A DNA stretch of 64,000 nt, taken from positions 3,033,214 through 3,097,213 of the forward strand of contig OW818678.1 of NCBI GenBank assembly GCA_942493115.1. Reading direction: 5' to 3'. The DNA comes from an uncultured Gammaproteobacteria bacterium. Its GTDB lineage: Bacteria; Pseudomonadota; Gammaproteobacteria; Enterobacterales; Alteromonadaceae. This document shows, piece by piece, positions 48,027 to 51,400 of the stretch; positions within the stretch are counted from its first letter, which is position 1; each line of letters starts with the position of its first letter. The notes beneath the pieces are model-generated. The model did no database searches. It saw only the letters and a list, made by a program, of their open reading frames with translations, and was not told the origin of the DNA. The position numbers and the translations under genes are program-made.

Positions 48027-49604
48027 TTATTCCCACTCAATGGTCGCTGGTGGTTTACCGGAAACGTCGTAAACCACACGGGAAATGCCGTTTACTTCAT
48101 TGATGATGCGGTTCGACACATGACCCAGCAGCTCGTATGGCAGGTGTGCCCAGTGCGCAGTCATAAAGTCGACGGTTTGTACTGCACGCAGAGAAACCAC
48201 CCAATCGTATTTACGACCATCACCCATCACACCCACTGATTTTACCGGCAGGAATACAGTAAATGCCTGGCTGACTTGCTCGTACCAACCGGATTTATGC
48301 AATTCTTCAATAAAAATCGCATCGGCTTTACGCAATAAATCACAATATTCTTTTTTCACTTCACCCAGCACCCGCACCCCTAAACCAGGGCCAGGGAACG
48401 GGTGGCGGTACAGCATGTCGTAGGGCAGACCCAGTGCCAGGCCCACTTTGCGCACTTCGTCTTTAAAGAGTTCACGCAGCGGCTCAACCAGACCCATTTT
48501 CATTTCCGCTGGCAGGCCACCAACGTTATGGTGTGATTTAATCACATGGGCTTTGCCGGTTTTAGAAGCAGCAGATTCAATGACATCAGGATAAATAGTG
48601 CCCTGAGCTAACCATTTGGCATTGGTTAACTTTTTCGCTTCTTCGTCAAATACTTCCACAAAAACACGACCAATAATTTTACGTTTGGCTTCTGGTTCTG
48701 CTTCTGAGGCCAAAGCATTCAGGAAACGATCTTCAGCTTTGACATGAATAATGTTCAGACCAAAATGGTCACCAAACATATCCATCACTTGCTGGCCTTC
48801 GTTTAAACGCAATAAACCGTTATCAACAAAGACACAGGTCAGGTTTTTGCCGATAGCGCGGTGTAGCAGCATGGCCACTACCGAAGAGTCAACACCACCG
48901 GACAGGCCTAAAATGACCTGATCGTCACCCACTTGTTTTTTGATGTTGGCAATAGCGTCATCAATGATGGTGGCTGGGGTCCAGAGTTTTTCACAACCGC
49001 AGATATCAACAACAAACTGTTCCAGCATGCGCAAACCCTGACGGGTATGGGTCACTTCAGGGTGGAACTGTACACCGTAGAATTGCTTGGTTTCATTGGC
49101 CATAGCGGCATGCGGGCAAGTTGGCGTTTGGGCAGTGGTAACAAAACCAGCTGGAATTTCAACAACTTTATCGCCGTGGCTCATCCAGACGTCCAATAAA
49201 CCGTGGCCTTTGTCATTCACGTGATCTTCAATGCCGGCAAACATCGGGTTATTGGCAATAATTTCTACCTGCGCATAACCAAATTCACGTTTGTCAGAGC
49301 TGGCAACTTTACCACCTAACTGCTCGGCCATGGTTTGCATGCCATAACAAACGCCTAATACCGGCACATTGGCTTCAAACACATACTGCGGCGCCCGTGG
49401 TGAACCGGCTTCGGTCACACTCTCAGGGCCGCCAGATAAAATAATACCGGTCGGGTTAAATTCAGCGATTTGTTCAGCTGTGACATCCCAGGCCCAGAGT
49501 TCACAATAAACGCCAATTTCGCGGACACGACGCGCGATTAACTGGGTATATTGCGAACCGAAGTCGAGGATCAGAATACGGTGGAAATGGATATTTTTGC
49601 TCAT
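48027..49604 (-). CDS. guaA: GMP synthase (glutamine-hydrolysing)
   Basis: [56 protein letters not shown]. Confidence 0.99.
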
Positions 49605-49704
49605 ATCAACCTTGTGTCGGTAGCTGGCCAGTTAACACTGGCCGGAAAAACCACGCTGGCACGCACCAGCGATAAAAACCACACCAGCATAGCTGCCAGC
49701 GCTT

Positions 49705-49855
49705 TATCCCCATCATCCCTGAAGCCGCGGGGGCTGCTTTCACTCACTGGGAAACCAGCCGCCCTATCGCATAACTCACTACGCTCATGGGTCGGACTGG
49801 CGTTCCAGAACCGTTCAATTGCCGCCTACCCGCATCATCAATGATTTAGGGGATA
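49705..49855. repeat. ERIC/IRU-like miniature inverted-repeat element, 151-bp variant
   Basis: Terminal inverted repeat TATCCCC...GGGGATA. Internal segments GGCTGCTTTCACTCAC and TTGCCGCCTACCCGCATCATCAATGATTTAGGGGATA follow the ERIC consensus as I recall it. Long nested hairpin. Confidence 0.75.
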
Positions 49856-49858
49856 TCA

Positions 49859-51400
<1,542 letters not shown>

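What the first reader, a model, noticed from the sequence alone, without database searches (positions are those of the whole stretch)
49705..49855. ERIC-like element with mutually complementary insertions in both arms
Seen: 151 bp bounded by TATCCCC/GGGGATA. Relative to the 127-bp ERIC consensus as I recall it, the left arm gains TGGGAAACCAGCCG (49748-49761) and the right arm gains TCGGACTGGCGTTCCA (49792-49807). These are near reverse complements, so the long hairpin is extended rather than broken. Known: ERIC/IRU elements are described mainly from Enterobacterales and Vibrionaceae, sit in transcribed intergenic regions and affect mRNA processing. Inference: a distinct ERIC subfamily in another lineage whose structure is under selection, here placed 3 nt after the guaB stop inside guaBA. 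Only one copy is visible in this window.
Basis: partly seen in the sequence, partly recalled or inferred. Interest (0 to 1): 0.62.

Follow-up and report, generated by a model that had tools for sequence, protein, structure and literature searches.

The report
Long-form ERIC repeat in Rheinheimera guaBA
The 151-base hairpin just after the guaB gene is a genuine copy of the ERIC mobile repeat, living in the aquatic genus Rheinheimera, whose middle part was swapped for a longer version with two mirror-image 17-base hairpin cassettes; it is a new variant of a known kind.

Summary
Window 49705-49855 is a 151-bp imperfect palindrome (TATCCCC...GGGGATA). It starts 3 nt after the guaB stop and has extra 14-nt and 16-nt stretches at mirrored positions.

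It is a true ERIC/IRU element. The genome holds 21 copies, and their 127-bp consensus is 104/126 identical to the published E. coli ERIC consensus. The host genus is Rheinheimera.

The two inserts are cassettes of a Rheinheimera long-form ERIC series (127, 143, 158, 172 and 176-193 bp). They occur in 8 of 43 species and never outside ERIC in this genome.

Three other species carry a plain 127-bp ERIC at exactly this guaBA site, and most species have it empty. The arms of this copy match those orthologs, but its centre matches long-form paralogs. Ectopic gene conversion is therefore the likeliest origin.

The paired cassettes add about 16 kcal/mol to the predicted RNA hairpin. However, they show no copy-specific covariation, one-armed copies are common, and this copy's left cassette is decayed. 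Selection on the extended helix is not supported.

Nineteen of 21 copies face the same way relative to flanking genes. That fits a co-transcribed hairpin affecting mRNA fate, but no RNA data were available.

The parts
49705..49855 (-). ERIC/IRU element, 151 bp, long form. The guaBA mRNA (- strand) carries the orientation of the original Hulton consensus. The + strand is the orientation printed by Delihas 2007.
49808..49855 (-). Outer arm, 5' in the mRNA, including the terminal TA and the TIR TATCCCC. It starts 3 nt after the guaB stop.
   Evidence: arms 79-84 of 91 identical to the orthologous copies
49792..49807 (-). Cassette b (TCGGACTGGCGTTCCA on +). It is identical 16/16 to cassette b of copies in five other species. 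Its core CTGG-CGTT-CCAG is self-complementary.
49762..49791 (-). Apical stem-loop of ERIC (CCCTATCGCATA..TACGCTCATGGG). It is more diverged from the orthologs than the arms are.
49748..49761 (-). Cassette a, decayed: 14 nt (TGGGAAACCAGCCG) against the family's 17-nt CTGGRRCGYCAGYCCGR.
49705..49747 (-). Outer arm, 3' in the mRNA, ending GGGGATA. It has a small deletion (TGTTG) relative to the orthologs.
49856..49861 (-). guaB stop TAA followed by a second in-frame stop TGA. All filled alleles have TAATGA. The six empty alleles aligned have a different sequence after the first stop codon.
49859..51328 (-). guaB, IMP dehydrogenase
49654..49702 (-). Two tandem terminator-like hairpins with T-runs (49702-49681 and 49671-49654), directly downstream of the ERIC.
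   Evidence: conserved in part in relatives
49624..49645 (-). Third hairpin (CCGGCCAGTGTTAACTGGCCAG), about 20 nt before the guaA start codon.
48027..49604 (-). guaA, glutamine-hydrolysing GMP synthase

Best explanation
The element is a resident copy of the ERIC/IRU miniature inverted-repeat element in a Rheinheimera genome.

Shown:
- It sits at a TA a few bases after the guaB stop codon, upstream of the terminator-like hairpins that separate guaB from guaA.
- The same insertion, in the plain 127-bp form, is present in three other Rheinheimera species. Most species have the site empty.
- In this genome the central 60 nt consist of the apical stem-loop plus a mirrored pair of 17-nt cassettes (consensus CTGGRRCGYCAGYCCGR and its inverse). 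This architecture is typical of a Rheinheimera long-form ERIC subfamily.

Inferred:
- The centre was copied into the resident element from another ERIC copy by ectopic gene conversion. It was not built here by two independent insertions or by selection for a longer helix.
- The element is co-transcribed with guaB, and probably guaA, in the orientation that almost all copies in this genome show.
- It folds into a long RNA hairpin, lengthened by about 12 bp by the cassettes. Like ERICs studied in Yersinia, it acts at most as a modest modulator of mRNA processing or decay at the guaB-guaA junction. The cassette pair itself is probably close to neutral.
For: ERIC membership:
- 21 dispersed copies with TA ends.
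- The 127-nt consensus is 104/126 identical to the published E. coli consensus, with the same length and TIR.
- A covariance model built from them finds full-length copies in 42 of 43 Rheinheimera species and in at least 9 families of the order.
- Rfam's V_AS5, whose consensus is visibly a Vibrio ERIC, matches a consensus-like copy over the whole model at E = 1.5e-8.

Mobility:
- Empty guaBA sites in most species, including six aligned here (G044, G015, G013, G004, G006, G051). Filled sites in G000, G020, G048 and G046 at the identical position.

Cassette family:
- The cassette b pattern occurs in 8 of 43 species (5 to 40 copies). The reversed-pattern control gives 0. Among about 185,000 species genomes, all 32 matching stretches come from Rheinheimera records or from metagenome bins that the genome search places in the same genus.
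- Length classes are 127, 143, 158, 172 and 176-193 bp.
- At 1 mismatch or fewer, neither cassette b (or its reverse complement, i.e. cassette a) nor cassette c is found outside ERIC in this genome.

Conversion:
- The arms are closest to the orthologs (84, 83 and 79 of 91; best paralog 77).
- The core is closest to paralog c3224950 (51/60) and to a R. riviphila copy (50/60).
- The central 30 nt match 19-22/30 to orthologs and up to 26/30 to long forms. Arms against centre: Fisher p = 0.0004 to 0.10.
- The closest relative by flanks, G020 (92.5% identity), has the 127-bp form.

RNA role:
- 19 of 21 copies (15 of 17 loci, p = 0.002) place the same strand in the sense of co-directional flanking genes, often within 25 nt of a stop codon. 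That strand folds better for most copies.
- For this copy the fold is -64.9 kcal/mol sense against -54.7 antisense.
- The Vibrio ERIC-like AS5 RNA was seen on northern blots (PMC2665243).
Against: - Co-transcription and any effect on guaB/guaA are therefore inferred.
- The polarity of the change (gain in G000 or loss in the other three alleles) rests on parsimony. The filled state is patchy on the flank tree, so the spacer has probably recombined between species.
- No near-identical donor copy exists in this genome; the best is 51/60.
- The centre-against-arms contrast rests on only 30 + 91 positions.
Confidence: 0.7

Rival explanations
1. One reading: the two inserts are a co-adapted pair kept by selection, because the longer RNA or DNA hairpin has a function at guaBA or for the subfamily.
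For: - The pair adds about 16 kcal/mol, whereas a single insert adds only 2-5.
- 34 of the 52 cassette-bearing copies sampled have both.
- Mismatches between a and b are almost all transitions, which give G.U in one strand.
Against: - There is no copy-specific covariation: 427 Watson-Crick cells observed against 433 +/- 4 with shuffled partners.
- The variable positions form mismatched haplotype combinations more often than matched ones.
- 17 copies have b only, 1 has a only, and some have two tandem a units opposite one b.
- The only clear double change (CTGG..CCAG to CTGA..TCAG) preserves the hairpin inside cassette a while breaking two a:b pairs.
- The guaBA copy's cassette a has lost 3 nt.
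- Sampling was biased towards b-bearing copies.
Confidence: 0.12
2. The cassettes arose in place at guaBA. One arm gained an insert, and intrastrand template switching in the hairpin (quasipalindrome correction) copied it onto the other arm.
For: - The mirrored position and near-complementarity are what template switching produces.
- Each cassette is itself an inverted duplication-like mini-hairpin.
- Cassette c forms a hairpin with its own flank.
- This may be how the cassettes first arose in the family.
Against: - Cassette b here is identical 16/16 to b in five other species, and a is homologous to the family's a. The sequences therefore pre-existed elsewhere.
- The intervening apical stem-loop also changed towards long-form paralogs.
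- a and the reverse complement of b carry family-wide fixed differences, not copy-specific identity.
Confidence: 0.08
3. A long-form ERIC inserted independently into the same TA in this lineage, or the long form is ancestral at this locus and both cassettes were lost in the allele shared by the other three species.
For: - The filled state is patchy on the flank tree.
- An unrooted four-allele comparison cannot give polarity.
- ERIC prefers TA sites close to stop codons.
Against: - The arms share locus-specific variants with the three orthologs (TATCCCC/GGGGATA ends, TTCAATTG) and the flanks are identical, TAATGA|TA..TA|AAGCGC.
- Losing two separate 14-17-nt segments precisely and also changing the centre needs a conversion event anyway.
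- G020, the nearest relative, has the 127-bp form.
Confidence: 0.1

Closest known systems
ERIC / IRU / RU-1 (enterobacterial repetitive intergenic consensus; Sharples & Lloyd 1990, Hulton et al. 1991; consensus of Wilson & Sharp 2006 as printed in Delihas 2007, PMC2759123)
   Same: - 127-bp core, TATACCC...GGGTATA ends and flanking TA.
- 83% identity of the family consensus to the E. coli consensus.
- One long hairpin.
- Intergenic position next to stop codons, and dispersed copies with empty and filled alleles.
   Different: - The host is Rheinheimera, not Enterobacteriaceae or Vibrionaceae.
- This copy and its subfamily carry 17-nt hairpin cassettes at mirrored sites at the base of the apical stem, plus a third site (c) in one arm.
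- From my memory of Sharp 1997 and Wilson & Sharp 2006 (papers not held), the internal insertions described for E. coli ERIC are about 70 bp.
Yersinia ERICs as RNA elements (De Gregorio et al. 2005, J Bacteriol 187:7945; summarised in PMC2229807 and PMC10969869)
   Same: - Orientation bias of copies next to stop codons, and presumed co-transcription.
- In their model a ribosome terminating close to the element opens the hairpin and exposes an RNase E site, lowering upstream mRNA. Here the element starts 3 nt after the stop, so a terminating ribosome would cover its first bases.
   Different: - Nothing was measured here.
- I could not read that paper, so I cannot say whether this copy is in their A or B orientation.
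- The 3' arm here is not particularly A/U-rich.
Rfam RF02818 V_AS5 (Vibrio RNA AS5; from sRNA-Seq of V. cholerae, PMC2665243)
   Same: - The Rfam consensus is an ERIC-like 129-nt hairpin in the same orientation as the guaBA mRNA.
- It matches a consensus-like Rheinheimera copy end to end (44 bits, E = 1.5e-8) and this copy weakly (22 bits, E = 0.02).
   Different: - Both scores are far below the gathering score of 96 bits.
- AS5 is described as an antisense sRNA and is not called ERIC in the source paper.
Modular or size-variant bacterial MITEs: Correia/NEMIS 107- and 155-bp forms; pneumococcal BOX with variable numbers of boxB (PMC2229807, PMC3049150)
   Same: One family exists as a series of length variants that differ by internal modules, and the variants are dispersed through the genome.
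   Different: - Here the modules are short (14-17 nt) self-complementary units placed symmetrically in both arms of a single hairpin.
- One is shown entering a resident copy.

Membership tests
ERIC / IRU | Sequence similarity to the 127-bp consensus | tested here: met
   The family consensus is 104/126 identical to the E. coli consensus. This copy is 95/119 identical over aligned columns (consensus taken from PMC2759123).
ERIC / IRU | Unit length about 127 bp with terminal inverted repeats TATACCC/GGGTATA | tested here: met
   In this genome 11 of 21 copies are 126-128 bp (13 are 123-131 bp). This copy is 121 bp without the cassettes and has TATCCCC/GGGGATA ends.
ERIC / IRU | Insertion at TA with TA duplication; empty and filled alleles | tested here: met
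   TA lies at both ends of most copies. The empty allele is ..TAAGT[TA]AAAAC.. and the filled allele is ..TAATGA[TA]-ERIC-[TA]AAGC... The flanks have diverged, so the duplication is inferred rather than letter-perfect.
ERIC / IRU | Folds as one long imperfect hairpin | tested here: met
   -64.9 kcal/mol, z = -4.5. The RNAalifold consensus of 19 copies gives nested outer and apical helices.
ERIC / IRU | Multiple dispersed intergenic copies | tested here: met
   There are 21 copies at 17 loci, all between ORFs apart from one 1-nt overlap with a crude ORF end.
ERIC / IRU | Co-transcription with flanking genes | not testable with these tools
The only indirect evidence is the absence of a promoter-like site in the spacer and the terminator-like hairpins downstream of the element.
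Rfam RF02818 V_AS5 | Score at or above the gathering threshold (96 bits) | tested here: not met
   22.2 bits for this copy and 44.2 bits for a consensus-like copy.
IS630/Tc1-type MITE (Stowaway-like, TA target) | Ends shared with an autonomous IS630-family element in the same genomes | tested here: not met
   DDE_3 transposases occur in only 15 of 43 species. There are none in G000 or in the ERIC-rich R. riviphila, and only a broken one in SA_1. The one element inspected has unrelated ends, CTAAATAACTGATCC... Other transposase families were not searched.

The most novel reading that the evidence does not exclude
ERIC elements may grow by taking up short self-complementary hairpin cassettes (CTGG-N4-CCAG plus 5 nt) at a few fixed, mirror-symmetric internal sites.

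- The cassettes would then spread between resident copies by conversion.
- A similar cassette (CCGG-AGTG-CCGG plus 5 nt) sits at the same left-arm site in ERICs of another family of the order.
- This would point to a site-specific process tied to the still unknown way ERIC is mobilised, or to a protein that recognises the cassette hairpin, rather than to random indels.
Probability: 0.12. Interest if true: 0.7.

Novelty: new variant of a known kind. Interest (0 to 1): 0.4.

Why it matters
ERIC is one of the oldest known bacterial repeats and is widely used for strain typing. How it moves and what shapes its hairpin are still unknown.

This locus offers a clean natural series at one site in an essential purine operon: empty, plain 127-bp and cassette-bearing 151-bp alleles. 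It also shows that resident copies can be remodelled from other copies.

That gives a direct way to test whether hairpin length matters for mRNA processing. It also shows that ERIC copies do not evolve independently, which bears on using them as markers.

Finally, it documents abundant close ERIC relatives in Rheinheimera, with copy numbers from 0 to more than 80 per genome. No paper in the searched library describes ERIC elements in that genus.

Tried and rejected
- **blastn against all complete E. coli genomes.** The 151-bp element gave no match at E <= 0.01. This reflects a short diverged query against 28 Gb, not absence. Membership was settled with the published consensus instead.
- **Rfam at gathering thresholds.** Nothing was found in the window.
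- **Key ERIC papers.** De Gregorio 2005 and Wilson & Sharp 2006 are not held. Their content is quoted only through reviews or marked as memory.
- **Autonomous partner.** The IS630-type DDE_3 search showed no correlation with ERIC abundance and unrelated ends. Other transposase families were not searched, and the ERIC-rich genomes were not scanned for ERIC ends flanking an ORF.
- **Independent small repeat.** The cassettes are not found outside ERIC in this genome, so this idea was rejected.
- **Conserved guaBA regulatory RNA.** Rejected because of the empty sites and the dispersed copies.
- **Literature on ERIC in Rheinheimera.** No relevant paper was found.

Full report
**Observation.**
- Window 49705-49855 reads TATCCCC...GGGGATA and is 151 bp long.
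- The flanking ORFs are guaB (49859-51328, - strand; TIGR01302, 626 bits) and guaA (48027-49604, - strand; NF000848, 833 bits).
- On the mRNA strand the junction is GGC TAA TGA | TATCCCC. The element therefore begins 3 nt after the guaB stop, and those 3 nt form a second in-frame stop.
- As RNA in the mRNA sense it folds into one long hairpin of -64.9 kcal/mol (z = -4.5; 0 of 200 shuffles as good). The other strand gives -54.7.
- In the fold they pair with each other over 12 bp.
- Deleting both in silico costs about 16 kcal/mol. Deleting either one alone leaves the element only 2-5 kcal/mol more stable than when both are removed.

**What it is.**
- Iterated nhmmer on the whole genome (4.02 Mb, 47.9% G+C) finds 21 copies. 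Their core is 122-127 nt and most begin and end with TA.
- The 127-nt consensus (TATACCCTTCATCC...CCCCAGTCACATAG..CTATGCTCCTGGGGATTC...TTTTGGGTATA) is 104/126 identical to the E. coli ERIC consensus printed in Delihas 2007, with the same length and ends.
- This is a real ERIC/IRU family, not just a look-alike.
- Rfam has no family that reaches threshold.
- With relaxed thresholds the only hit is RF02818 V_AS5. Its printed consensus is plainly a Vibrio ERIC in the same orientation as the guaBA mRNA. The scores are 22 bits for this copy and 44 bits (E = 1.5e-8, whole model) for a consensus-like copy, against a gathering score of 96.
- AS5 was detected as a small RNA on northern blots in V. cholerae. 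Its authors did not call it ERIC.

**Host and distribution.**
- A pattern scan of one genome per species (about 185,000 species) returned 32 stretches. All come from Rheinheimera records or from metagenome bins that the genome search places in the same genus. This identifies the genus. In NCBI taxonomy it is Chromatiales, Chromatiaceae.
- A covariance model built from 19 of this genome's 21 copies (R1) finds full-length ERICs in 42 of 43 Rheinheimera species. Counts run from 0-1 to at least 81, which is the scoring cap.
- In an even sample of the GTDB order, ERICs appear in 19 of 121 genomes, 11 of 60 genera and at least 9 families. They are absent from the four other sampled genera of Rheinheimera's own family.
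- No paper in the library describes ERIC in Rheinheimera.
- Earlier notes of this scan report ERIC-like hairpin repeats in many phyla. I did not check them, and they are only leads.

**The inserts are family-wide cassettes.**
- In the alignment of this genome's copies, extra blocks sit at three fixed sites:
  - (a) before CCCCAGTCAC in one arm;
  - (b) after CTCCTGGG in the other arm, mirror-symmetric to (a);
  - (c) after TTGCCGC.
- A pattern for cassette b plus its ERIC context, allowing up to 3 mismatches, matches 5 copies in this genome. It matches 14 in R. riviphila, 40 in Rheinheimera sp. SA_1 and 1-7 in five other species. That is 8 of 43 species, with 0 hits for the reversed control pattern.
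- Extracted copies fall into length classes: 127; about 143 (b only); about 158 (a+b); about 172 (a+b+c); and 176-193.
- The 176- and 188-189-bp copies hold two tandem a units opposite a single b.
- In the pooled sample of 70 distinct copies, 34 have a+b, 17 have b only, 1 has a only and 18 have none. The sample is biased towards b because of how it was collected.
- The typical units are a = CTGGRRCGYCAGYCCGR and b = YCGGRCTGGCGYTCCAG.
- Each unit is itself a small palindrome (CTGG-N4-CCAG) with a 5-nt tail, and b is the inverse of a.
- Close matches to cassette b (or its reverse complement, i.e. cassette a) and to cassette c occur only inside ERIC copies in this genome.
- ERICs of another family of the order carry a similar unit at the same left-arm site (CCGGAGTGCCGGCCCAG and CCGGAACGCCGGCCG).
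- Other families have different insertions at other fixed sites, including a 48-nt insertion at site c.

**History of the guaBA copy.**
- Across the genus, the guaB-guaA spacer is empty in most species. The six empty alleles aligned are G044 (SA_1), G015, G013, G004, G006 and G051.
- It is filled at the identical position in four species: this genome (151 bp) and G020, G048 and G046 (all 127 bp, no cassettes).
- A tree of 2571 nt of guaA and guaB flanks puts G020 next to this genome (92.5% identity). The other filled alleles scatter among empty ones, so the spacer has probably moved by recombination or been lost repeatedly.
- Segment comparison shows a chimera:
  - The 91 arm positions of this copy match the orthologs best (84, 83 and 79; the best paralog scores 77).
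  - The 60-nt centre (a + apical stem-loop + b) matches long-form paralogs best: 51/60 to the copy at genome position 3224950 and 50/60 to a R. riviphila copy.
  - Even the 30-nt apical part alone is 19-22/30 to orthologs against up to 26/30 to long forms.
  - The arms-against-centre contrast gives Fisher p = 0.025 (G020), 0.0004 (G046) and 0.10 (G048).
  - Cassette b here is identical 16/16 to b in five other species.
- The simplest reading is that a resident 127-bp ERIC had its centre overwritten from a long-form copy by ectopic gene conversion.
- The polarity (gain here, not loss elsewhere) rests on parsimony and is not proven.

**Is the longer helix selected?**
- In 32 copies with both cassettes, 78% of a:b cells are Watson-Crick. 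Nearly all the rest are transitions: 68 G.T, 39 A.C and 10 others.
- Pairing a of one copy with b of a random other copy gives as many Watson-Crick cells as the true partners (433 +/- 4 against 427 observed).
- There is therefore no copy-specific compensation. The complementarity is inherited from the cassettes being inverse copies of one unit.
- The one clear double change (CTGG..CCAG to CTGA..TCAG in a) keeps the hairpin inside the cassette and breaks two a:b pairs.
- One-armed copies are common, and the a unit at guaBA has decayed to 14 nt.
- I conclude that the extended helix is a by-product, not a demonstrably selected structure.

**Likely working.**
- In this genome 19 of 21 copies (15 of 17 loci, binomial p = 0.002) lie between co-directional ORFs with the same strand in the sense of transcription. 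These ORFs come from a crude ORF call of my own.
- That strand folds more stably for most copies. Seven of the 15 same-orientation loci lie within 25 nt of the upstream stop codon.
- This matches what reviews report for Yersinia. There, ERICs are co-transcribed, orientation matters, and an element close to a stop codon can lower the upstream mRNA by exposing an RNase E site when ribosomes open the hairpin.
- At guaBA the element lies between the guaB stop and two terminator-like hairpins with T-runs (49702-49681 and 49671-49654). There is no promoter-like site on the mRNA strand of the spacer.
- I infer that the element is part of the guaB 3' region or the guaBA intercistronic RNA. It would form a stable hairpin that could be processed out or could alter decay. 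The effect of the cassettes on this is probably small.

**Mobilising enzyme.**
- IS630-type (DDE_3) transposases are found in only 15 of 43 species. There are none in this genome or in ERIC-rich R. riviphila, and only a broken one in SA_1.
- The one element inspected has unrelated ends.
- The partner of ERIC remains unknown.

**Verdict.**
- This is a genuine ERIC copy of a Rheinheimera long-form subfamily, remodelled in place.
- It is a new variant of a known kind.
- Interest is moderate. Its main value is as a natural allelic series (empty, 127-bp, 151-bp) and as evidence for cassette-wise, conversion-driven evolution of ERIC hairpins.

Noticed in passing
own genome C1:2456447-2456826 and C1:2633919-2634321 (outside the window): There are two head-to-tail arrays of three ERIC copies each. 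Neighbouring units share the junction TA. Two units of the second array are near-identical, differing at one base. ERIC is usually described as dispersed single copies.
   Followed up: no
window 49713-49856 (-) and L002:1500-1623: Rfam RF02818 'V_AS5', annotated as a Vibrio antisense sRNA, has an ERIC-like consensus and matches Rheinheimera ERICs over its whole length. The source paper (PMC2665243) does not mention ERIC. The family may really be a transcribed ERIC copy.
   Followed up: partly
window 49654-49702: Two terminator-like hairpins form a direct repeat (GCTGG...GTGGTTTTT twice). The first is missing in G020 and G046 and partly missing in G048. Only one such unit is left in G006 and G051. 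The guaB-guaA spacer is therefore evolving fast, apart from the ERIC.
   Followed up: partly
window 49654-49671 compared with cassette a of L089 (G051): The second terminator hairpin CGCTGGTGCGTGCCAGCG resembles some cassette a variants (CGCTGGTGCGCCAGTG). The cassettes might derive from local terminator-type hairpins, or this may be chance.
   Followed up: no
L145, L146 (G115, family f24 of the order): ERIC copies of another family carry a 15-17-nt self-complementary insert (CCGG-AGTG-CCGG plus a tail) at the same left-arm site as cassette a, without a right-arm partner.
   Followed up: partly
L147-L152 (families f24, f17, f10): Other lineage-specific ERIC insertions sit at fixed sites. There is a 17-nt insert in the right arm (f24). 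A 48-nt double-hairpin insert sits at site c (f17). An 11-nt duplication of CACATA.. lies at the apical loop (f10).
   Followed up: no
genus-wide and family-wide: ERIC copy number ranges from 0-1 to at least 81 among 43 Rheinheimera species. No copies were found in the four other sampled genera of the same family. This suggests recent bursts and possibly horizontal arrival.
   Followed up: partly
window 49856-49861: All four ERIC-filled alleles end guaB with tandem stops TAA TGA. The aligned empty alleles have TAA followed by GTT.., and G004 has TGA TAA.
   Followed up: no
own genome, 17 ERIC loci: There is a strong orientation bias. At 15 of 17 loci the same ERIC strand lies in the sense of co-directional flanking ORFs, and 7 of those lie within 25 nt of the upstream stop codon.
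   Followed up: yes
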